Of a stretch of DNA of 32,000 bases, positions 2,589 through 22,165 are shown piece after piece (within the stretch, counting starts at the first letter, position 1; each line of letters starts with the position of its first letter). Source of the stretch: Micrococcaceae bacterium. GTDB lineage: Bacteria > Actinomycetota > Actinomycetes > Actinomycetales > Micrococcaceae. A model generated the notes under the pieces. That model made no database searches, had not been told where the DNA came from, and saw only the letters and a list, made by a program, of their open reading frames with translations. Position numbers and translations under genes: made by a program. Where the stretch lies: contig DASYGM010000065.1 of the NCBI GenBank assembly GCA_035999715.1, forward strand, positions 16,298-48,297, in the 5' to 3' direction.

Positions 2589-4244
2589 GTGAGCGCGACC
2601 GCCCAGCAGGGCAACCCGGAGAGGGTGTACCTCAGCGCCACGGAGATCCGCCGCTACACCTTCAAGGCCGGGCTGGTCCGGACCGAAGGCGGCATCGGCG
2701 AGCTGATCTCCGAGGTCTACACCTACGTCTTTGGCGCCGTGGTGCTGCTGGTCATGTCCGGTGCCATCATCCTGGGCCTGCGGCACTCGCTGGGCCTGGG
2801 GTCCACCCCGGTGTGGACCGCTTCCGCACTGTCCCCGGGGTTCGCGAGCCTGGCCCCGCTGCAGGCCAGCGCCACGGTCATGCTGACCCTGGCGGCGGCC
2901 ATGCTCAGCATCGAGCTGAATGTCGGCCCCATTGCCATGACCGTGCCACAGACCTTCTGGTGGCTGGGCCTGCCCGTGCGGCGCCGGGGATTCATCCAAC
3001 CCGGCTTCCTGCGCTCCATGATCTGGCCCGCGGCAGGAGGGATCGCCGTCGTCGTACCCCTGTCACTGGGCGTGGGCAGCGAATCCTCCGCCGGCTTTGT
3101 TACGTTGGCCGCCCTCTGTGGTGTCGCGCTGGGCCTGCTGCTGTACGGTCTAGCCGGATGGGTCCAAATCACCGGACGCGGCGCGTGGCTGCGGCCCCTG
3201 GCCGGGGCGCTGACCCTGCTGGCCCCGCTGTCCCTGGTTGCCACCGCACTTTATAACAACGTCTCCGGCACCCGACTGGACATGTCCTGGCTGCTCTACC
3301 TGCCCACCAGCTGGCCGCTGCTGGTGGCCAACGGGCAGCTCTGGCCGCTACTGCTAACCGTCGCCTGCGTGGCCGTCCTGGCCATGGTTTACGCCAACCT
3401 GGAGCGGATCAGCTCCGCCCGGCTGAAGGCCAGCGCCATCGCCAGCACCTATGTGGCCGGCTCAGTGCTCTCCATGGACGCCACCGAACTTTCCAAATCA
3501 CTGAGCAGCGGCACCCGCAGCGGGCATTCCTGGATCCGGCTGCCGCTGGTCTTCCGCACCGGCTCGCAGACCCGGCGCTCGGTTCTGACCCTGCTCAGCG
3601 CACACTTGACCATGCAGCTGCGCCAGCCCGCCCGGCTGCTGCGGGTCCTGGTGCTGGCGGCTATCCCCGCCAGCGTGGCCTCCGTGGAATTCCTGGGCAA
3701 CGCCACCCTGATTGCAGTCGTGCTGTTTTTCTGTGCACACTTTGGCGTCACCGGGCTCGGCGCCGTGGCACGGTTCGCCTCAGGCAACCCCAGCGTGGAC
3801 GCGCTGATGCCGCTGCCGGCGAAGACCGTCCGCCGCGTCCACTACCTGATCCCCGCGGCCGGCATGACGCTGTGGATGGCCGTGGCCTTTATCCTGCTGC
3901 GCGTCCTGGGCGTCGGCTCCTGGCCACTGATCATCCTGGCCATCCTGGCCGGGCCGGGCCTGGGGGGAGCCACCCTGCGCGCGGCCTTCCGTCCGACCCC
4001 TGACTGGAACATGCCCGCCGTCTCCACGGCCATGGGACCGGTGCCCACCGGCGCCATCCGCAGTTTCCTGGTGGGCCCGGACCTGACCCTGATCACCCTG
4101 CTGCCAACGCTGATCTGCTTGATCTCCGGCGGTGTACCGCTGCTGGCGTTTCCGATCCAGCTGGCGCTGACGCTGATCGCCTTCGCTTGGGGCACCCACA
4201 TCCGGAAGCCGAAAAAGCCACAGGCAGCAAAGCCTGCCATTTAG
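2589..4244 (+). CDS. large polytopic membrane protein of unknown function (DUF6297-like by recollection), partner of the upstream ABC ATPase
   Basis: 551 aa with a GTG start 3 nt after the ATPase stop (2583-2585). It has many hydrophobic segments across its whole length and strong GC3 bias. I did not recognise an ABC permease EAA motif. Confidence 0.7.
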   Translation: MSATAQQGNPERVYLSATEIRRYTFKAGLVRTEGGIGELISEVYTYVFGAVVLLVMSGAIILGLRHSLGLGSTPVWTASALSPGFASLAPLQASATVMLTLAAAMLSIELNVGPIAMTVPQTFWWLGLPVRRRGFIQPGFLRSMIWPAAGGIAVVVPLSLGVGSESSAGFVTLAALCGVALGLLLYGLAGWVQITGRGAWLRPLAGALTLLAPLSLVATALYNNVSGTRLDMSWLLYLPTSWPLLVANGQLWPLLLTVACVAVLAMVYANLERISSARLKASAIASTYVAGSVLSMDATELSKSLSSGTRSGHSWIRLPLVFRTGSQTRRSVLTLLSAHLTMQLRQPARLLRVLVLAAIPASVASVEFLGNATLIAVVLFFCAHFGVTGLGAVARFASGNPSVDALMPLPAKTVRRVHYLIPAAGMTLWMAVAFILLRVLGVGSWPLIILAILAGPGLGGATLRAAFRPTPDWNMPAVSTAMGPVPTGAIRSFLVGPDLTLITLLPTLICLISGGVPLLAFPIQLALTLIAFAWGTHIRKPKKPQAAKPAI

Positions 4245-4335
4245 AAAATCCGCAGGCGGCAAGCCCGCCTTATAGAAAAAACGCAGGCGGAACGGGCCGC
4301 CTTCTAGAAAAAACGCAGACGGAACTGCCGCCATC
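4208..4335. repeat. tandem array of four ~31-32 bp hairpin-containing units
   Basis: Unit 1 (4242-4272) is tagaaaatccgcaggcggcaagcccgcctta. Unit 2 (4273-4304) is tagaaaaaacgcaggcggaacgggccgccttc. Unit 3 (4305-4335) is tagaaaaaacgcagacggaactgccgccatc. A degenerate unit 0 (about 4208-4241, gaaaaagccacaggcagcaaagcctgccatt) forms the last codons of the membrane-protein CDS. Units 1 and 2 carry the stem AGGCGG/CCGCCT. On the minus strand each unit reads as a stem-loop followed by GCGTTTTTT. Confidence 0.75.
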
Positions 4336-11996: not shown

Positions 11997-13790
11997 ATGA
12001 CTTCGACCATTCCGATGCCCGCCACGGGCGGCACTTCCGACGACGGCCTGGTGGAGATGGCGTGGGACCCCATCACCCGCATCGTCGGCAGCCTGGGGAT
12101 CTACACCAAGATCGACTTCAGCAACAAGCAGGTGGTGGAGTGCCACAGCACGTCATCGATCTTCCGCGGCTACTCCATCTTCATGCGGGGTAAGGATCCG
12201 CGGGACGCGCACTTCATCACCAGCCGGATCTGCGGAATCTGCGGCGACAACCACGCCACCTGCTCCTGCTATGCGCAAAACATGGCGTACGGGGTGAAGC
12301 CCCCTGCACTTGGTGAATGGATCGTGAACCTGGGCGAGGCCGCCGAGTACATGTTCGACCACAACATCTTCCAGGAGAACCTGGTGGGCGTGGACTACTG
12401 CGAGAAAATGGTCTCCGAAACCAACCCGTCGGTGCTGGCCAGCGCGGAGAACACCCGTGCCCCGCACGAGGCCGAGCACGGCTACCGCACCATCGCGGAC
12501 ATCATGCGCTCGCTGAACCCGTTCACCGGCGAGTTCTACCGCGAGGCCCTGCAGGTCAGCCGGCTCACCCGGGAGATGTTCTGCCTGATGGAGGGCCGCC
12601 ACGTGCACCCCTCCACGCTGTACCCCGGCGGGGTCGGCACCGTGGCCACCGTGCAACTGATGACGGACTACATCACCCGGCTGATGCGCTACGTGGAATT
12701 CATGAAGAAAGTCGTGCCCATGCACGATGACCTCTTCAACTTCTTCTACGAGGCACTGCCCGGCTACGAGCAGGTGGGGCTGCGCCGGACCCTGCTGGGC
12801 TGCTGGGGTTCCTTCCAGGACCCGGACCACTGCAACTTCGAGTACAAGGACATGACGGAGTGGGGCCGGAAGATGTTCGTCACCCCCGGCGTCGTGGTGG
12901 ACGGGAAGCTGGTGACCACCGACCTGGTCCAGATCAACCTGGGCATCCGGATCATGCTGGGCTCCTCCTACTATGAGGACTGGAATGACCAGGAAATGTT
13001 CGTCACCCACGACCCGCTGGGCAACCCGGTGGACAGGCGCCATCCCTGGAACCAGCACACCAATCCGCAGCCGCAGAAGCGCGACCTGCAGGACAAGTAC
13101 AGCTGGGTCATGTCGCCGCGCTGGTCCGACGGCCAGGACAACCTGGCGCTGGACACCGGCGGCGGCCCCCTGGCACGGCTCTGGTCCACGGCGCTCGCCG
13201 GGTTGGTGGACGTGGGCTACATCCAGTCCACCGGGCACAGCGTACAGATCAACCTGCCCAAGACCGCCTTGAAGGGACCTGTCACCCTGGAGTGGAAGAT
13301 TCCGCAGTGGAGCAACACGTTGGAGCGCAACCGGGCCCGCACCTATTTCCAGGCCTACGCGGCCGCCGCCGCCCTGCACTTTGCCGAAAAGGCGCTGGCG
13401 GAGATCCGCGCCGGACACACCAAGACCTGGGAGACCTTCGACGTCCCGGATGAGGCGGTGAGCTGCGGCTTCACGGAGGCCGTCCGCGGCGTGCTGTCGC
13501 ACCACATGGTGATCCGCGACGGGAAGATCGCCAACTACCACCCCTATCCGCCGACGCCGTGGAACGCGAGTCCCAGGGATGCCTCCGGAACGCCGGGACC
13601 CTACGAGGACGCGGTGCAGGGACAGCCGATCTTCGAGGAGAACGACCGCGAGCACTTCAAGGGCATCGACATCATGCGGACGGTGCGCAGCTTCGACCCC
13701 TGCCTGCCGTGCGGGGTCCATATGTACCTGGGCGACGGCAAGACCTTGGAGAAGCTGCACTCCCCGACGCAGTCACTGACCGGAGAGTAG
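11997..13790 (+). CDS. hhyL: [NiFe]-hydrogenase large subunit, group 1h/5
   Basis: The N-terminal Ni-Fe ligand motif is TSRICGICGDNH and the C-terminal motif is SFDPCLPCGVH. A 22-aa extension (MYLGDGKTLEKLHSPTQSLTGE, 13722-13787) follows, of the kind removed by the maturation protease. The protein is 597 aa; SD GAGAGG is at 11984-11989. Confidence 0.95.
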   Translation: MTSTIPMPATGGTSDDGLVEMAWDPITRIVGSLGIYTKIDFSNKQVVECHSTSSIFRGYSIFMRGKDPRDAHFITSRICGICGDNHATCSCYAQNMAYGVKPPALGEWIVNLGEAAEYMFDHNIFQENLVGVDYCEKMVSETNPSVLASAENTRAPHEAEHGYRTIADIMRSLNPFTGEFYREALQVSRLTREMFCLMEGRHVHPSTLYPGGVGTVATVQLMTDYITRLMRYVEFMKKVVPMHDDLFNFFYEALPGYEQVGLRRTLLGCWGSFQDPDHCNFEYKDMTEWGRKMFVTPGVVVDGKLVTTDLVQINLGIRIMLGSSYYEDWNDQEMFVTHDPLGNPVDRRHPWNQHTNPQPQKRDLQDKYSWVMSPRWSDGQDNLALDTGGGPLARLWSTALAGLVDVGYIQSTGHSVQINLPKTALKGPVTLEWKIPQWSNTLERNRARTYFQAYAAAAALHFAEKALAEIRAGHTKTWETFDVPDEAVSCGFTEAVRGVLSHHMVIRDGKIANYHPYPPTPWNASPRDASGTPGPYEDAVQGQPIFEENDREHFKGIDIMRTVRSFDPCLPCGVHMYLGDGKTLEKLHSPTQSLTGE

Positions 13791-13796
13791 CCCGCC

Positions 13797-14807
13797 GTGG
13801 ACGGGGACACGGTGGTGGCTGCCATGGACGGGAACGGAGCCTTCCCGCCCACGGACGGCAGCGCTCCGGAGCGCCCCGTCGACGGCGATCCCCGGGGCGA
13901 GGCCCGGCTCAGGGCCGCGGGCGAGCGGATCAGCACCCTGCTGGACGCCCTGGGCGCCGGCGGCGCGGTGGCCAGGGAGCGTGCCGAGGACCTGGTGCGC
14001 CAGGTGACCGACCTGTACGGCGCGGGGCTGGAACGCATCCTGACCGTCCTGACTGCCGGCGGCCCCGGACGGGACGACGTCCTAAACGAACTGCTGGCGG
14101 ACGATCTGGTCTCCTGCCTGCTGCTGGTGCACGGCCTGCATCCGCGGGACCTGGCCACCCGCGTGGCGTCCGCGCTGGACAGTGTCCGGCCGTACCTGGG
14201 CTCGCATGGCGGCGACGTCGAGTTGCTGGGGATCAGCGACGACGGCGCGGTGCGCCTGCGTCTGCTGGGCAGCTGCCAGGGCTGCCCGTCGTCGTCGGTC
14301 ACGCTCAAGTACGCCGTCGAGGATGCCATCATGGCCGCGGCCCCGGAGGCCACCTCGATTGTGGTTCAGGAGGCGGAAAAGTCCGCCGGCTCGCCGGCAC
14401 TGATCCCCGTGTCATCGCTGCGCCTGCGCCTGGATCAGGTTCCCGAGCAGCCCGAGGGGTCCTGGGAGGCGCTCCCCGGGATTGCCGAGCTGCAGCCCGG
14501 CGAGGTGGCAGGATTCCTGGCCGCCGGCGTGGAGCTGCTGGTTTGCCGGAGCGGGCAGGACCTGTACGCCTTCCGCGACTACTGCCCGCGCTGCACCGGG
14601 TCCATGGCCGGAGCTGCCCTGCAACGGGCGCTCGCCGCGCCCACCGGCGGCGGACTGCTGCGCTGTCCGCTCTGCCGGAGCCACTTCGATGTCCGGCGGG
14701 CGGGGGCATGCGTGGAGGACAAGGGACTGCATTTGGATCCGCTCCCGCTGCTGGTCCGTTCCGGCGTGATGTCCGTAGCCGTGCCGGTCGGAACGGAGCG
14801 CGCCTGA
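13797..14807 (+). CDS. NifU-domain iron-sulfur protein with a C-terminal Rieske-like fold bearing four Cys (HhyE-like)
   Basis: The NifU C-terminal-type segment is LDSVRPYLGSHGGDVELLGISDDGAVRLRLLGSCQGCPSS. The C-terminus YAFRDYCPRCTG...LLRCPLCRSHFD aligns to the Rieske pattern CPH.G...CP.HG, but with Cys in place of both His. The GTG start is 6 nt after the hhyL stop. Confidence 0.8.
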   Translation: MDGDTVVAAMDGNGAFPPTDGSAPERPVDGDPRGEARLRAAGERISTLLDALGAGGAVARERAEDLVRQVTDLYGAGLERILTVLTAGGPGRDDVLNELLADDLVSCLLLVHGLHPRDLATRVASALDSVRPYLGSHGGDVELLGISDDGAVRLRLLGSCQGCPSSSVTLKYAVEDAIMAAAPEATSIVVQEAEKSAGSPALIPVSSLRLRLDQVPEQPEGSWEALPGIAELQPGEVAGFLAAGVELLVCRSGQDLYAFRDYCPRCTGSMAGAALQRALAAPTGGGLLRCPLCRSHFDVRRAGACVEDKGLHLDPLPLLVRSGVMSVAVPVGTERA

Positions 14808-14956
14808 TGGCCCCGGATGGCGCAACGCGTACCCGGGCGGCTGCCGCCCCGTTGGGAGCAGCGCGTGCCCGGGCGGCGGCCCTGTTGGGAGCAGCGCGTG
14901 CCCAGGCGGCGGCCACCCCTGTCGGCTCCACGCGTGCCTGGGCGGCGGCACCATGA
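14807..14956 (+). CDS. possible 49-aa Ala/Arg-rich sORF encoded entirely by a tandem repeat (may be untranslated spacer)
   Basis: ATG 14807 overlaps the TGA of the NifU-domain gene (ATGA), and its TGA 14954-14956 overlaps ATG 14953 of the next gene (ATGA). The peptide is MAPDGATRTRAAAAPLGAARARAAALLGAARAQAAATPVGSTRAWAAAP. I found no SD and no homology. Confidence 0.3.
   Translation: MAPDGATRTRAAAAPLGAARARAAALLGAARAQAAATPVGSTRAWAAAP
14816..14954. repeat. four tandem 33-37 bp GC-rich units filling the intergenic gap inside the hydrogenase operon (MIRU-like)
   Basis: Unit A is 14816-14850. Unit B (14851-14883) is gttgggagcagcgcgtgcccgggcggcggccct. Unit C (14884-14920) is gttgggagcagcgcgtgcccaggcggcggccacccct. 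Unit D (14921-14954) is gtcggctccacgcgtgcctgggcggcggcaccat. B and C differ by one base over their first 31 nt. Confidence 0.75.
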
Positions 14957-15693
14957 CGACGGCGTTGCCTGGGGACGCCCGTGCCCTCTCTGTGCTGCGC
15001 AGGATCAGCGCCAACCGGCCCGCGCCGTCGGACGGCGAGCGCTGCGAGATGTGTGCGGAACCGATTCGTGACGCGCACCAGCATGTGGTGGATGTGGAGA
15101 GCCGGGCCCTGTTGTGCACCTGCCGCCCGTGCTACCTGCTCTTCACCGACCCGCAGGCGCATCTGCGCTACCGGTCCGTGCCGGAGCGCTACCATTCCTT
15201 CCCCGGATTCCGGCTTGGTCAGGGACAGTGGGACGAACTGGAAATCCCGGTGGGCTTGGCCTTCTTCTTCCGCAATTCCAAGCAGGGAAAGATGCTGGCC
15301 TTCTACCCGGGCCCGGCCGGTGCCACCGAATCGGAGTTGCCGCTGGGGGCATGGGATGCGGTCCAAGCCGCAAACCCCTCGCTTGGAGTTGCCGCGCCGG
15401 ACACCGAGGCGCTGCTGATCCGCGGGCCGGGACCGGAGCGGCTGCAGGCCGACTGCCATCTGGTCCCCATCGACGCCTGCTATGAGCTTGTGGGCCAGCT
15501 GCGCCGGGTCTGGCGGGGATTCGACGGCGGCCAGCAGGCGCGCGAACAGCTTGCGGCTTTCTTCGACAAGGTGGCTGGCCGCAGCAGGCCCGTACCAGAC
15601 CTTCCGGAGCCTCCCGCCCCTGCCGCGTCAGCGGACGTGGCGCAACCCGCAGCCCACGCCGCGGCAGCGGAGGGAGCCGTGACAAATGACTGA
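14953..15693 (+). CDS. conserved hydrogenase-cluster protein with an N-terminal five-Cys motif (DUF5947-like by recollection)
   Basis: 246 aa with strong GC3 bias. The motif is ERCEMCAEPIRDAHQHVVDVESRALLCTCRPCYLLF (C31, C34, C55, C57, C60). It is translationally coupled on both sides. Confidence 0.8.
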   Translation: MTTALPGDARALSVLRRISANRPAPSDGERCEMCAEPIRDAHQHVVDVESRALLCTCRPCYLLFTDPQAHLRYRSVPERYHSFPGFRLGQGQWDELEIPVGLAFFFRNSKQGKMLAFYPGPAGATESELPLGAWDAVQAANPSLGVAAPDTEALLIRGPGPERLQADCHLVPIDACYELVGQLRRVWRGFDGGQQAREQLAAFFDKVAGRSRPVPDLPEPPAPAASADVAQPAAHAAAAEGAVTND

Positions 15694-16327
15694 CCTTCAG
15701 TTCGCCGTCGTTGACCTTCAGCCGGAGCGTTACGCCGCGGCCCCCCAACTGACCGCACGGCTGCGCATCAGCGAATCCACCGGCGCCGCCATCCACGCCA
15801 TCGCCCTGCGCTGCCAGGTCCGCATCCAACCGCAGCGGCGCGGCTATGACGCCGAGGAAGCGGCCGGGCTGCTGGACCTCTTTGGCCCGCGCGAACGCTG
15901 GCCCTCCACGCTGAAACCATTCCTGTGGATGCAGTGCAGCACCATGGTCCAGGGGTTCACGGACCAGACCGAGGTGGACCTGCCGCTGCCGTGCACCTTT
16001 GACTTCGACGTGGTCGGCGCGAAATACCTGCACGCCCTCCGGGACAAGGCCGTCCCGCTTGAGCTGCTCTTTTCCGGCACGATCTTCACCAAGGGAACCA
16101 CCGGATTCGGGGTGGAGCAGGTGCCCTGGGACCGGGAAGCGAGCTACCAGATGCCGGTGTCCGTGTGGCGAGGGCTGATGGACGCGTTCTTCCCGCACGC
16201 CGGCTGGATCCGTCTTGACCTCGACGTCATCAACGCGCTGGCGCACTACAAAGCCGCGCTGGGCCTGACCTCCTGGGAGGAAACCATGGAGAGCCTACTG
16301 GCGAAGGCCGGTGAACCGGTCCCGTGA
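15686..16327 (+). CDS. conserved hydrogenase-cluster protein of unknown function (DUF6084-like by recollection)
   Basis: 213 aa. ATG 15686 overlaps the upstream gene by 8 nt, and its stop overlaps GTG 16324 of the next gene (GTGA). No motif was recognised. Confidence 0.8.
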   Translation: MTDLQFAVVDLQPERYAAAPQLTARLRISESTGAAIHAIALRCQVRIQPQRRGYDAEEAAGLLDLFGPRERWPSTLKPFLWMQCSTMVQGFTDQTEVDLPLPCTFDFDVVGAKYLHALRDKAVPLELLFSGTIFTKGTTGFGVEQVPWDREASYQMPVSVWRGLMDAFFPHAGWIRLDLDVINALAHYKAALGLTSWEETMESLLAKAGEPVP

Positions 16328-17757
16328 ACACTAGTCTCAGCCTGGCCCGCGCCATTGCGGATGTGGTCCTCTACGAGGGCTATCTGCTCTACCCCTACCG
16401 GGCCTCCTCCCAGAAGAACCAGGCCCGCTGGCAGTTCGGCATCCTGGGCCCTCAGGGCGCCGCCGGGAACGGAACGGGCGAGGATTCTGCTATGTCCACC
16501 GACTGCCTGCTGCTGGCCGGCCCCCTAGCCCGGCTGGAGGTCCATCTGCGCTTCCTGCAGCTGCAGTCGCGCAGCGTCGAGGAGGCCGACGGCGGCGCCT
16601 TCCGGCCGGTGCCCGGGCTGACGGTCGGATCCGCCAGCTGGCTGAGCTGGGACGAGGCGACTGAGCACGAGCTGACGCTGGGGCCGTTCAGCCTGGCCGA
16701 GCTGGCCGAGGGCCTGAGCCTGCCCGTGGAGGTTGCCGGCGGGGAGGAGGCGGAACTTCTGACGGATGAGGCCGGCACGGTGGCCGGAAGGCTGGTCCGA
16801 CGGCGGCGGCCGCTGCACGGTGTCGTCCGGCTGACGGCGGCGGAAGTTCCGCCAGCCGGGACGGCGGAAGTGTCGCCAGCCGGGACGGACACCAGTGCCC
16901 CGTTCGACTGTGGCAGCAGGCCGTTGCTCCGGCTGCGGGTGGCAGCCGAAAACCTTGCGGACGGCCAGGGCGCGGGCAAGCAGGGTGCCATCGCCACGTC
17001 GTTTATCGGCACCCATCTGCTGCTTGGCGCCCAGGACGCGGATTTCGTCTCGCTGCTTGAGCCGCCCGCCGAAGCTCAGGCCGTCGCTGCCGCGTGCACC
17101 CATCACCGGTGCTGGCCCGTACTGGCCGGTCCAGAAGGCCAGCGGGACATTCTGCTGCTGTCCCCGATCATTCTCTACGACCACCCGGCCGTTGCTCCGG
17201 AAAGCTCCGTTGCCCTCTACGACTCCACCGAAATCGACGAGATCCTGACCCTGCGTGTACTGACACTGACCGAGGAGGAAAAGGCCGAGGCCCGTGCCAC
17301 CGATCCGCGTGCGGCTGCGGTCATTGACCGCTGCGAGGCGATGTCCCCGCAGGAGCTGCAGCAGCTGCATGGGGCTCTGCGCAGCCCGCATGCCATGGAG
17401 GGGGCAGCAGAAGCCGGGGATCTGCCCTGGTGGGATCCGGCATCGGACGCCAGCGTCCAGCCGGAGGCCGACGTCGTCATGATCGCCGGAGTCCCGGTCT
17501 CGCGGGGCAGCCGGGTGGTTGTCCGCCCGCAGCGCCGGGCCGACGCACAGGACCTGTTTTCCGCCGGCCAAATCGCCCGCGTCAACGGCGTGCACTTCGA
17601 CGTCGACGGAAGCACGCACGTCGCCGTCGTTCTGGAAGCGGATCCGGCCGCGGAACTGCAGGAATGGTACGGCCGCTATCTGTATTTTGCACCGGAGGAG
17701 CTGGAACCGATGGGTCCGCTGACGGACCCGGAAGATCGAAGGGAAAATGGATCATGA
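16324..17757 (+). CDS. 477-aa hypothetical protein of the hydrogenase operon
   Basis: This long ORF has consistent GC3 bias. The N-terminus reads ADVVLYEGYLLYPYRASSQKNQARWQFGILGP. It contains an in-frame 24-bp tandem duplication at 16840-16887 and is coupled to its neighbours at both ends. I recognised no domain. Confidence 0.75.
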   Translation: MNTSLSLARAIADVVLYEGYLLYPYRASSQKNQARWQFGILGPQGAAGNGTGEDSAMSTDCLLLAGPLARLEVHLRFLQLQSRSVEEADGGAFRPVPGLTVGSASWLSWDEATEHELTLGPFSLAELAEGLSLPVEVAGGEEAELLTDEAGTVAGRLVRRRRPLHGVVRLTAAEVPPAGTAEVSPAGTDTSAPFDCGSRPLLRLRVAAENLADGQGAGKQGAIATSFIGTHLLLGAQDADFVSLLEPPAEAQAVAAACTHHRCWPVLAGPEGQRDILLLSPIILYDHPAVAPESSVALYDSTEIDEILTLRVLTLTEEEKAEARATDPRAAAVIDRCEAMSPQELQQLHGALRSPHAMEGAAEAGDLPWWDPASDASVQPEADVVMIAGVPVSRGSRVVVRPQRRADAQDLFSAGQIARVNGVHFDVDGSTHVAVVLEADPAAELQEWYGRYLYFAPEELEPMGPLTDPEDRRENGS

Positions 17758-17873
17758 GAGTCCTAGGCATGCTCACCACACTCGTGTTGCTGGCCGGGGC
17801 CGCTACGGTTGCGGTCGTCGGGGTGCGCTCCATCCCTGACATCCAGCGCTACCTTAAGATCAGGCAAATGTGA
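17754..17873 (+). CDS. 39-aa single-pass transmembrane micro-protein
   Basis: The peptide is MRVLGMLTTLVLLAGAATVAVVGVRSIPDIQRYLKIRQM: one hydrophobic helix followed by a basic amphipathic tail. ATG 17754 overlaps the upstream TGA (ATGA), and its stop 17871-17873 overlaps GTG 17870 of the protease ORF. Confidence 0.55.
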   Translation: MRVLGMLTTLVLLAGAATVAVVGVRSIPDIQRYLKIRQM

Positions 17874-20916: not shown

Positions 20917-22165
20917 GTCCGGCTCGGACCGCCTGAGCCGGGACGCAGCACCGGCAGCGGGCGCGCCCGAGGCCTCGCCCCCGAACCGGCACGGCGGCAA
21001 GCCGGCCAAGTCGCCCGGCGGCAAGCCGGTCGGGCCGCCCGGCCGCACGCAGACCGCATTGCCCGGCGGCAAGCCGGTCAGGTCGCACAGCCGCACGCAG
21101 ACCGCGTTGCACGGCCGCAGGCAGACCAAGTTGCCCGGCCGCAGGCCGGGCAGGTACCCCGCACGCGCCGTGGCGGGCAGCTCCGTCGTCGTCCTCCTGA
21201 TGGGCCTGGCGGCGCTGGCGCTGGGGCGCTACAACGTTCCGTTCTGGGATGTGCTGCAAACGCTGGCGTCCCGGCTGCTGCCGATCCCCGCGTCCGTCAG
21301 TGGGGTGGAACAGAACGTGGTGCTGCTGGTGCGGCTGCCGCGGGTGCTGCTGGCGCTGCTGGTGGGCGGCGGACTGGCAATCGGTGGCGCCGCGCTGCAG
21401 GCCATCTTCCGCAATCCGCTGGTCAGCCCGGAAATCATCGGCGTCTCCGCCGGTGCCTCTTTTGGCGGTGCGCTGGCCCTGCTGCTGGGACTAGGCTCCG
21501 CCGTGCTGGTGGGTTCATCCTTCCTGTTCGGGCTTGCGGCGTTGGGGCTGCTGTTCCTGATCACCTCGGGGAAGGGCGGCACGCCGATGCTGATGCTTGT
21601 GCTGGGCGGAGTGGTCACCGGGTCCTTCTTCTCGGCGCTGGTGGCCCTGGCTACCTATGTGGCGGACCCGTTCACCACGCTGCCTGCCATTGTTTTCTGG
21701 CTGTTGGGCAGTGTGGCATCGGCAACTTACGCCCAGGTGCTGGTGGCGGTGGGACCGGTGCTGGTGGGGACTGCCGTACTGCTCGCGCTGCGCTGGCGGA
21801 TCAACGTCCTCTCGCTGGGCGATGAGGACGCCGCGGCGCTGGGGCTGCGGCCGCGGACCCTGCGCTGGGTGGTCCTGGTCTCGGTGGCCCTGATCGTGGC
21901 AGGCGCAGTGGCGGTCAGCGGTGCCATCAGCTGGGTGGGACTGGTGATTCCGCACCTGGCACGGATGTGGGTGGGCCCGGACCACCGCGTGCTGCTGCCG
22001 GTGTCCTTCCTGGTGGGCGGGGCCTACATCGTTGCCGTGGACACCATTGCCCGTACGGCAACCGCCGGCGAGATTCCGCTGGGGGTCCTCACTGCGCTGA
22101 TCGGCGCCCCGGTGTTCTTCCTGCTGCTGCGGCGCAACCGGGACAGGATCTGGGACAGTGCTTGA
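20906..22165 (+). CDS. iron-chelate type ABC permease (FecCD/BtuC family) with a repeat-encoded N-terminal extension
   Basis: The FecCD core is RLPRVLLALLVGGGLAIGGAALQAIFRNPLVSPEIIGVSAGASFGGAL. ATG 20906 overlaps the SBP gene by 11 nt. An alternative start at GTG 21170 (VAGSSVVVLLMGLAALAL...) would drop the 88-aa Gly/Lys/Pro/Arg-rich extension. Confidence 0.85.
   Translation: MLHESGSDRLSRDAAPAAGAPEASPPNRHGGKPAKSPGGKPVGPPGRTQTALPGGKPVRSHSRTQTALHGRRQTKLPGRRPGRYPARAVAGSSVVVLLMGLAALALGRYNVPFWDVLQTLASRLLPIPASVSGVEQNVVLLVRLPRVLLALLVGGGLAIGGAALQAIFRNPLVSPEIIGVSAGASFGGALALLLGLGSAVLVGSSFLFGLAALGLLFLITSGKGGTPMLMLVLGGVVTGSFFSALVALATYVADPFTTLPAIVFWLLGSVASATYAQVLVAVGPVLVGTAVLLALRWRINVLSLGDEDAAALGLRPRTLRWVVLVSVALIVAGAVAVSGAISWVGLVIPHLARMWVGPDHRVLLPVSFLVGGAYIVAVDTIARTATAGEIPLGVLTALIGAPVFFLLLRRNRDRIWDSA
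21014..21109. repeat. 48-bp tandem duplication (2 copies) inside the 5' extension of the permease ORF
   Basis: Copy 1 (21014-21061) is cccggcggcaagccggtcgggccgcccggccgcacgcagaccgcattg. Copy 2 (21062-21109) is cccggcggcaagccggtcaggtcgcacagccgcacgcagaccgcgttg. Partial related copies flank them. The repeat is in-frame (16 codons). Confidence 0.8.

What the first reader, a model, noticed from the sequence alone, without database searches (positions are those of the whole stretch)
14807..14956. MIRU-like tandem repeat forming a start/stop-coupled sORF between two hydrogenase operon genes
Seen: the 146-nt gap between the NifU-domain gene and the five-Cys gene consists of four tandem 33-37 bp GC-rich units (14816-14954). 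One frame is open across the whole array. It begins with an ATG overlapping the upstream TGA (ATGA at 14805-14809) and ends with a TGA overlapping the downstream ATG (ATGA at 14953-14956). The peptide is an Ala/Arg repeat (GAARARAAALL / GAARAQAAATP).

Established: mycobacterial interspersed repetitive units (MIRUs) are tandem repeats in intergenic regions of operons, and their small ORFs overlap the stop and start codons of the flanking genes.

Inference: this is the same architecture in what looks like a non-mycobacterial actinobacterium. It may preserve translational coupling across a repeat expansion, and its copy number could vary between strains and modulate downstream expression.
Basis: partly seen in the sequence, partly recalled or inferred. 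Interest (0 to 1): 0.6.

Follow-up and report, generated by a model that had tools for sequence, protein, structure and literature searches.

The report
Repeat-expanded relay mini-ORF in hydrogenase operon
Between two accessory genes of a soil actinobacterium's hydrogenase operon, a tiny bridging reading frame that probably hands ribosomes from one gene to the next has been lengthened from 10 to 49 codons by tandem duplication; it works like a mycobacterial MIRU but arose locally and is not one.

Summary
Four diverged 32-37 bp GC-rich units (14815-14952) fill the 145-nt gap between the NifU-Rieske gene and the DUF5947 gene. A 49-codon ORF (14807-14956) starts in TGATG on the upstream stop and ends in ATGA on the downstream start. 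The array is identical in 7 contigs from at least 6 soil samples, so it is not an assembly artefact.

It is not a MIRU-family element:
- No second copy was found in this genome or in relatives.
- It shows no similarity to a genuinely dispersed MIRU-like element at the same junction in a Mycobacterium MAG.
- Copy number did not vary within the species.

Six close relatives (83-86% DUF5947 identity) carry one 33-nt mini-ORF with the same TGATG...ATGA couplings. This array is an in-frame expansion of that spacer.

Across 163 actinobacterial loci, 120 have a direct stop/start overlap here. Of 33 loci with a spacer, 22 bridge it with such relay mini-ORFs, against 1.7 expected by shuffling.

Best reading: a termination-reinitiation relay that keeps DUF5947 translation coupled, with the peptide a by-product. 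Translation itself is untested.

This is a new variant of a known kind, of moderate interest. The recurrence across lineages is the more interesting result.

The parts
13797..14807 (+). NifU-domain plus Rieske-like gene (336 aa); stop TGA at 14805-14807
   Evidence: Pfam NifU E=2e-22 and Rieske E=1.4e-4. The stop position is conserved in relatives.
14795..14798 (+). GGAG Shine-Dalgarno-like motif 8 nt upstream of the sORF ATG
   Evidence: Duplex energy with the anti-SD is -8.4 kcal/mol, reached by about 9% of random positions.
14805..14809 (+). TGATG: upstream stop and sORF start overlap by one base
   Evidence: The same TGATG is present in N5, Sec5.7, G002, G004, L199, L200 and L201.
14807..14956 (+). 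Relay sORF, 49 codons plus stop; Ala/Arg-rich, with no coding-type codon usage
   Evidence: Translation. Codon-usage log-odds is -4.6. GC at codon positions 1/2/3 is 0.82/0.86/0.71. No Pfam hit. The exact peptide is not in the 15-billion-protein collection.
14815..14952 (+). Tandem array of four units (36, 33, 37 and 32 nt), 81% GC; U4 is the positional orthologue of the single spacer in relatives
   Evidence: TRF, repeats, unit alignment with relatives' spacers, unit identities.
14953..14956 (+). ATGA: the sORF stop overlaps the DUF5947 start by 4 nt
   Evidence: The weak SD-like GGCGG upstream scores -6.3 kcal/mol, reached by 26% of random positions. Start-region accessibility is low at 0.29, against a background median of 0.35.
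14953..15693 (+). DUF5947 gene (246 aa), the downstream partner of the coupling
   Evidence: Pfam DUF5947 E=8.5e-73. The N-terminus MTTALPG... is conserved in the closest relatives.

Best explanation
The array is a lineage-specific, locally generated minisatellite. It is an in-frame tandem expansion, by a net 117 nt, of a 33-nt 'relay' mini-ORF that close relatives carry between the NifU-Rieske gene and the DUF5947 gene of a group 1h [NiFe]-hydrogenase operon.

Proposed mechanism (inferred):
1. Ribosomes finishing the NifU-Rieske gene at TGA 14805-7 restart at the overlapping ATG 14807, helped by GGAG 8 nt upstream.
2. They read the 49 codons of the repeat, melting this 81% GC stretch.
3. They terminate at TGA 14954-6 and restart at the overlapping ATG 14953 of DUF5947.

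This preserves the termination-reinitiation coupling that most actinobacteria achieve here with a direct 4-nt overlap. The peptide is a by-product.

Shown: the anatomy, the origin from the single-unit spacer, uniqueness in the genome, stability within the species, and non-random recurrence of relay mini-ORFs at this junction. Inferred: that the sORF is translated and that DUF5947 expression depends on it.
For: Ancestral coupling and relay recurrence:
- Of 163 actinobacterial loci, 120 have a direct stop/start overlap at this junction, so coupling is the ancestral, conserved state.
- Among 33 loci with a spacer, 22 bridge it by mini-ORF(s) whose start overlaps the upstream stop and whose stop overlaps the DUF5947 start. 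Spacer shuffling gives 1.74 expected and a maximum of 5 in 500 trials.
- There are about 10 distinct sequence classes in Micrococcaceae, Nocardioidaceae, Frankiales, Jatrophihabitans, Mycobacterium and others. The DUF5947 tree needs at least 17 state changes.
- Genome-wide in G000 such relays are not enriched: 19 of 804 pairs versus 14 expected. The signal is therefore specific to this junction.

The close clade:
- Six close relatives have TGATG, a 33-nt sORF and ATGA: N5, Sec5.7-like L198, L199, L200, G004 and G002.
- Their peptides differ (MRACAGMGAP, MRARAGTGAP, MDPGAGDPAP) while length, frame and both overlaps are kept.
- L201 starts DUF5947 directly at the TGATG ATG.

The G000 array:
- Its units align colinearly with the relatives' spacer.
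- Anchor spacings are 36, 33 and 36, and the net expansion of 117 nt keeps the frame.

The DUF5947 start:
- It has only a weak SD-like motif and below-median accessibility.
- No promoter or terminator motif lies between the genes.

Precedent: termination-reinitiation at ATGA/TGATG overlaps (PMC6728339); a uORF with an AUGA overlap is essential for ppe2 expression in M. tuberculosis (PMC11260477); short ORFs that 'deliver' ribosomes, and MIRU ORFs coupled at -4 nt (PMC12548453).
Against: - There is no expression or ribosome-profiling evidence, so translation of the sORF is not shown.
- All three frames are open over the array, so openness is uninformative.
- Because the founding unit was 33 nt, frame preservation after duplication is partly automatic. 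Period-multiple-of-3 arrays are also 46% of intergenic arrays in this genome.
- The region does not fold better than shuffles (z=+1.3), so no special structure demands unwinding.
- The weak SD-like GGCGG could still allow independent initiation.
- Kin are not independent, so the count of independent relay origins (about 10-17) is approximate.
Confidence: 0.7

Rival explanations
1. Neutral minisatellite in a non-coding spacer. The repeat has no role, and the two-end coupling is inherited from the 33-nt ancestor and survived only because 33-nt units keep the frame. DUF5947 is initiated independently from its own weak ribosome-binding site.
For: - The genome is rich in minisatellites: 216 arrays in 3.1 Mb, and 46% of the intergenic ones have periods that are multiples of 3.
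- sORF codon usage is not coding-like.
- The peptide is not conserved among relatives.
- A GGCGG motif lies upstream of ATG 14953.
- Relay junctions genome-wide are at chance level.
Against: - The 22-versus-1.7 excess of relay mini-ORFs at this junction across lineages is hard to explain without selection on coupling.
- Two later 3-4-nt length changes among units also kept the frame.
- The DUF5947 SD is no better than 26% of random sites and its start is poorly accessible.
Confidence: 0.2
2. A true MIRU-type element: a member of a dispersed, possibly mobile repeat family whose copy number varies between strains and tunes downstream expression.
For: - The architecture is the same as MIRUs: an intra-operon tandem repeat with an sORF overlapping the flanking stop and start (PMC12548453, PMC3635867).
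- Copy number differs between species, 1 versus 4 units.
- Unitigs break inside the array in two further soil runs, which could reflect heterogeneity.
Against: - No other copy in the 3.1-Mb genome, which is 89.5% complete.
- None found in 25 relatives, and the spacer core is single-copy in N5 and G004.
- No similarity to the dispersed MIRU-like element found at the same junction in a Mycobacterium MAG.
- The array is base-for-base identical in 7 contigs from at least 6 samples, while another 36-nt repeat in the same operon is polymorphic.
- Units are 32-37 bp, below the 40-100 bp MIRU range.
- Units are 14-31% diverged, so the array is old and stable.
Confidence: 0.03
3. The 49-aa Ala/Arg-rich peptide is itself a functional micro-protein of the hydrogenase maturation machinery.
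For: It sits in a conserved operon, is coupled at both ends, and has a decent SD.
Against: - Orthologous sORFs are 10 aa with different sequences, and are absent in most genomes.
- Codon-usage score is negative.
- No Pfam hit.
- Low-complexity repeat composition.
Confidence: 0.03
4. Assembly or frameshift artefact: the repeat really belongs to the coding sequence of a flanking gene, as a C-terminal or N-terminal low-complexity extension.
For: - Other lineages do carry such extensions: a Pro/Ala tail on NifU-Rieske in L014 and (GINSA)n at the DUF5947 N-terminus in L101/L102.
- L201 has an in-frame 27-aa leader.
Against: - The sequence is identical in 7 independently assembled contigs and in two runs of different studies.
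- The upstream stop and the MTTALPG start are conserved in six relatives.
Confidence: 0.01

Closest known systems
Mycobacterial interspersed repetitive units (MIRUs; Supply et al. 1997, as summarised in PMC12548453 and PMC3635867)
   Same: A tandem repeat inside an operon, co-oriented with the genes. It carries a small ORF whose start overlaps the upstream stop and whose stop overlaps the downstream start, so coupling is kept across the insertion.
   Different: - Not dispersed: a single locus in this genome.
- No sequence similarity to a MIRU-like element.
- Units of 32-37 bp rather than 40-100 bp.
- Generated in place from a pre-existing 33-nt spacer rather than by insertion.
- No strain-level copy-number variation seen.
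- The host is a Micrococcaceae bacterium, not a Mycobacterium.
Termination-reinitiation coupling at ATGA/TGATG overlaps (Huber et al. 2019, PMC6728339) and coupling uORFs such as uPPE2 of M. tuberculosis (PMC11260477)
   Same: The same stop/start overlap motifs at both ends, and a short ORF whose likely role is to deliver ribosomes to the next gene.
   Different: The short ORF sits between two operon genes as a two-step relay rather than in a 5' leader. It is built of tandem repeats. No experiment exists for it.
Coding-region minisatellites (in-frame VNTRs) of actinobacterial genes
   Same: The period is a multiple of 3, the composition is low-complexity Ala-rich, and the origin is slipped-strand or unequal recombination. 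This is common in this genome.
   Different: It lies outside any conserved protein, in a separate frame, and is bounded by two stop/start overlaps.

Membership tests
MIRU (mycobacterial interspersed repetitive unit) | Dispersed at many loci of the genome (interspersed) | tested here: not met
   - Own genome: only the locus itself; the next best match is 28 nt at E=0.03.
- The 19-mer core with up to 2 mismatches is near the control level.
- 25 relatives: only weak 24-36-nt matches at E of 1e-4 or worse.
- The N5 and G004 spacer core is single-copy.
- Positive control: the element at the same junction in a Mycobacterium MAG has 9 further matches at E<=0.001.
- Caveat: G000 is 89.5% complete.
MIRU (mycobacterial interspersed repetitive unit) | Located between co-oriented genes of an operon | tested here: met
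   It lies between the NifU-Rieske and DUF5947 genes of the hydrogenase operon, with no promoter or terminator motif between them.
MIRU (mycobacterial interspersed repetitive unit) | Small ORF overlapping the stop and start codons of the flanking genes | tested here: met
   TGATG at 14805-14809 and ATGA at 14953-14956.
MIRU (mycobacterial interspersed repetitive unit) | Units of 40-100 bp | tested here: not met
   Units are 32-37 bp. The range comes from PMC3635867.
MIRU (mycobacterial interspersed repetitive unit) | Copy number varies between strains (VNTR) | tested here: not met
   Seven contigs from at least 6 samples, 99.7-100% identical overall apart from the 36-nt insertion in L183/L184, are all base-for-base identical across 14753-15000. 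The difference is only between species, 1 versus 4 units. Unitig breaks in runs X6 and X7 are inconclusive.
MIRU (mycobacterial interspersed repetitive unit) | Sequence homology to MIRU units | tested here: not met
   Only 7-9-nt chance matches to the MIRU-like elements of L082 and L139. The M. tuberculosis consensus itself was not available from a tool.
Termination-reinitiation translational coupling | Stop and start codons overlap (ATGA or TGATG) on one mRNA | tested here: met
   Met at both ends of the sORF. The motifs are as defined in PMC6728339.
Termination-reinitiation translational coupling | Downstream translation depends on upstream translation | not testable with these tools
   Only indirect support: a weak SD and low accessibility at ATG 14953, and comparative conservation of the relay.

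The most novel reading that the evidence does not exclude
At the NifU-Rieske/DUF5947 junction of group 1h hydrogenase operons, an unbroken chain of translating ribosomes is under unusually strong selection across Actinobacteria. Whatever comes to lie there is converted into a mini-ORF coupled at both ends. Examples are a frameshift relic of the DUF5947 leader, a genuine MIRU in mycobacteria, or a four-unit tandem expansion here. This would point to obligatory co-translational assembly or fixed stoichiometry of these two uncharacterised maturation proteins. It would also show that MIRU-like architecture can arise in place, without a mobile element.
Probability: 0.45. Interest if true: 0.6.

Novelty: new variant of a known kind. 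Interest (0 to 1): 0.45.

Why it matters
- It shows that the architecture thought typical of MIRUs, a repeat-borne small ORF coupled to both neighbours, can arise locally by tandem duplication of a relay mini-ORF. This happened in a non-mycobacterial actinobacterium and without a dispersed element.
- The recurrence of relay mini-ORFs at one specific junction (22 of 33 spacer-bearing loci versus about 2 expected) is a natural experiment. It argues that translational coupling itself is the selected trait.
- It flags the NifU-Rieske and DUF5947 proteins of high-affinity hydrogenase operons as a pair whose co-translation or stoichiometry probably matters.
- It gives a simple, testable system with 0-, 1- and 4-unit natural alleles for measuring how relay length affects coupling efficiency.

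Tried and rejected
- RNA structure: 14780-14980 folds no better than shuffles (z=+1.32) and has no Rfam match. A structured RNA element is rejected.
- Promoter or terminator inside the spacer: none found.
- Dispersed family: searched in the own genome, 25 relatives, N5 and G004. Nothing found.
- Homology to the mycobacterial element: none.
- Programmed frameshift fusing the sORF to DUF5947: rejected by reading the sequence. There is no slippery heptamer at ...GCACCATGACG..., and sORF peptides are not conserved.
- Functional peptide: no Pfam hit and negative codon-usage score.
- Intermediate alleles: the metagenome scan gave no relative closer than 74%. The 5.8-billion-protein search found nothing between 85% and 100% identity, so no 2- or 3-unit alleles were found.
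- Copy-number heterogeneity in reads: the runs held only contigs.
- Genome-wide relay habit: 19 observed versus 14 expected, so it is not a general property of this genome.
- My crude GC3/codon-usage gene caller covers 86% of the genome. Numbers that depend on it are approximate.

Full report
**Where the window lies.** The window is contig C116:16298-48297 of a 3.1-Mb, 268-contig genome that is 89.5% complete. Its closest named relatives are Micrococcaceae: Pseudarthrobacter sp. N5, Micrococcaceae bacterium Sec5.7 and Arthrobacter spp..

The finding sits in a group 1h-type [NiFe]-hydrogenase operon:
- large subunit, 11997-13790;
- NifU plus Rieske-like gene, 13797-14807;
- DUF5947, 14953-15693;
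- DUF6084, 15686-16327.

**Observation.** TRF reports an array at 14822-14947, with period 36 x 3.6 copies or period 33 x 2.7 copies. I place four units at 14815-14850, 14851-14883, 14884-14920 and 14921-14952. They are 36, 33, 37 and 32 nt long and 69-86% identical in pairs. The CGCGT anchors are spaced 36, 33 and 36 nt apart.

The ORF 14807-14956 encodes a 49-aa Ala/Arg-rich peptide. Its TGA lies inside ATGA at 14953-14956. The gap is 145 nt and 81% GC.

All three + frames are open across the array, so openness carries no weight. The exact coupling at both ends is the informative feature, and only 4% of spacer shuffles reproduce it.

**Is the array real?** Yes. The whole stretch lies, without a difference, in single contigs of two soil-metagenome runs from different studies; one of them may be the source. 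Positions 14753-15000 are base-for-base identical in six contigs from JGI and Logan assemblies that carry the same or a nearly identical DUF5947. A seventh contig begins inside the array and matches it.

**Is it a MIRU?**
- *Dispersal: not met.* The 150-nt stretch has no second copy in the genome; the next best match is 28 nt at E=0.03. The 19-nt core with up to 2 mismatches is near control level. Twenty-five relatives give only weak short matches. The relatives' spacer core is single-copy in N5 and in the G004 MAG.
- *Positive control.* The 69-nt spacer at the same junction in a Mycobacterium MAG (L082) has 9 further matches in that genome at E<=0.001 (five at E<1e-7). One lies about 690 nt downstream in the same operon. 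It behaves as a genuine MIRU-like element. The G000 array shares only 7-9-nt chance matches with it.
- *Strain-level copy-number variation: not seen.* The array is invariant in all near-identical contigs. A different 36-nt repeat in the DUF5947 tail (15631-15666) is duplicated in three of those samples.
- *Unit size.* Units of 32-37 bp are below the 40-100 bp MIRU range (PMC3635867).
- *Conclusion.* The architecture is MIRU-like, but family membership fails.

**Where it came from.** Six relatives at 83-86% DUF5947 identity have TGATG, then a 33-nt ORF, then ATGA at this junction. They are N5 (L020), a Sec5.7-like contig (L198), L199, L200, the G004 MAG (L016 = L024) and G002 (L010, an unpublished genome whose evidence is redundant with L199).

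Their 10-aa peptides differ (MRACAGMGAP, MRACAGLGAP, MRARAGTGAP, MDPGAGDPAP), while length, frame and both overlaps are kept. The G000 units align colinearly with this spacer, and U4 is its positional orthologue. The array is therefore an expansion of the spacer by a net 117 nt (39 codons).

Another relative, L201 (83% identity), starts DUF5947 directly at the TGATG ATG with a 27-aa Ala/Gly/Pro leader. Other members of the genus have a direct ATGA or GTGA overlap. A likely history is this:
1. The sORF is a relic of the 5' end of a variable DUF5947 leader.
2. An indel split it off from the rest of the gene.
3. It was later expanded in G000.

The direction of the L201 change is not resolved. No intermediate alleles were found: nothing lies between 85% and 100% identity in 5.8 billion proteins, and the metagenome scan returned nothing closer than 74%.

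**The comparative result.** I classified the junction in 163 loci from species-representative genomes and metagenomes.
- 120 have a direct stop/start overlap.
- 22 bridge a spacer with one mini-ORF (in one case two) whose start overlaps the upstream stop and whose stop overlaps the DUF5947 start.
- 21 are otherwise: 1-2-nt gaps, unresolved starts, or no coupling.

Among the 33 non-direct loci with room for a spacer, 22 are relays. Shuffling the spacers gives 1.74 expected and a maximum of 5 in 500 trials.

The relays fall into about 10 unrelated sequence classes, 15-69 nt long, in Micrococcaceae, Nocardioidaceae/Propionibacteriales, Frankiales, Jatrophihabitans, Mycobacterium and unnamed MAGs. 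The state needs at least 17 changes on a FastTree tree of DUF5947. Tree error inflates that number, and kin are not independent.

In the G000 genome as a whole, relays are at chance level: 19 of 804 same-strand pairs against 14 expected, using my crude gene caller. The excess is therefore specific to this junction. At 150 nt, G000 has the longest relay seen.

**Mechanism.** The best-supported reading is a two-step termination-reinitiation relay.

Precedent:
- ATGA and TGATG overlaps support reinitiation in bacteria and archaea (PMC6728339).
- In M. tuberculosis a uORF with an AUGA overlap is essential for ppe2 expression and needs the tight overlap (PMC11260477).
- A 2025 review notes that short ORFs may exist only to deliver ribosomes. 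It also notes that MIRU ORFs are coupled at -4 nt, so insertion has minimal impact on expression (PMC12548453).

Local features that fit:
- The sORF ATG has GGAG 8 nt upstream, scoring -8.4 kcal/mol (about the top 9% of random sites).
- The DUF5947 ATG has only GGCGG, scoring -6.3 kcal/mol, which 26% of random sites reach.
- Accessibility of the DUF5947 start region is 0.29 against a background median of 0.35. Stand-alone starts in the operon score 0.44-0.69.
- No promoter or terminator motif lies between the genes.

Features that argue against a functional peptide or RNA:
- The codon-usage score of the sORF is negative.
- There is no Pfam hit.
- The region folds no better than shuffles.
- There is no Rfam match.

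**Caveats.** Translation of the sORF is not shown. Frame preservation is partly automatic when a 33-nt unit duplicates, although two later 3-4-nt length changes also kept the frame. Period-multiple-of-3 arrays make up 46% of intergenic arrays and 98% of coding arrays in this minisatellite-rich genome, which holds 216 arrays. That feature therefore gives only about two-fold support.

**Verdict.**
- The coupling interpretation is supported and strengthened by comparison across lineages.
- The MIRU-family and VNTR-tuning interpretation is not supported.
- It is a new variant of a known kind: a relay sORF expanded in place by tandem duplication.

Earlier notes of this scan on the same window (e1-2454738, tight junctions throughout the operon; e1-2454739, a 39-aa ORF coupled at both ends at 17754-17873) agree with what I see. 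My genome-wide scan independently flagged the 17754-17873 junction as the only other relay in this operon.

Noticed in passing
window 15631-15666 (DUF5947 C-terminal tail, ADVAQPAAHAAA): A 36-nt in-frame tandem duplication is polymorphic between near-identical strains: 258-aa P0004 in three Logan samples versus 246-aa P0003/P0005. The junction array is invariant in the same contigs.
   Followed up: partly
L082:1918-1986 (Mycobacterium sp. MAG BP_236); homologous spacer in L139: The same NifU-Rieske/DUF5947 junction holds a 69-nt two-end-coupled sORF that belongs to a dispersed family, with 9 further matches in that genome at E<=0.001. One copy lies about 690 nt downstream in the same operon. 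It behaves as a genuine MIRU-like element.
   Followed up: partly
L101:1411-1540 and L102:100-200 (metagenome contigs): The DUF5947 N-terminus carries 15-nt tandem repeats encoding (G-I/V/L-N-S-A)n. The leader of this gene is a repeat and indel hot spot in several lineages.
   Followed up: no
L014 (G021, another Micrococcaceae genus), upstream of the DUF5947 start: The NifU-Rieske gene carries a Pro/Ala-rich C-terminal extension of about 100 aa, followed by a 1-nt gap before the DUF5947 start.
   Followed up: no
L201:39-140 (Logan contig, P0013): In this relative (83% identity) DUF5947 starts directly at the ATG of TGATG, with a 27-aa Ala/Gly/Pro leader. It may be the ancestral or a re-fused state of the sORF clade.
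   Followed up: partly
window 17754-17873: The 39-aa ORF between the 477-aa gene and the protease gene is the only other junction in this operon that my genome-wide scan flagged as a two-end-coupled relay. Whether it is a real micro-protein or another relay was not examined.
   Followed up: no
whole genome G000; window 4211-4332, 20992-21161 and 16838-16888: The genome is minisatellite-rich: 216 non-overlapping arrays with period of at least 15 and at least 2.5 copies in 3.1 Mb. 98% of coding ones and 46% of intergenic ones have a period that is a multiple of 3. The window itself holds a 32-bp AT-richer array at 4211-4332 and a 24/48/72-bp array at 20992-21161.
   Followed up: partly
runs X6 and X7 on window 14792-15062: Logan unitigs break inside the array (14792-14880, 14851-14903, 14874-15062) with uneven depth. 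This could reflect strain heterogeneity in those soils and could not be resolved from contigs.
   Followed up: no
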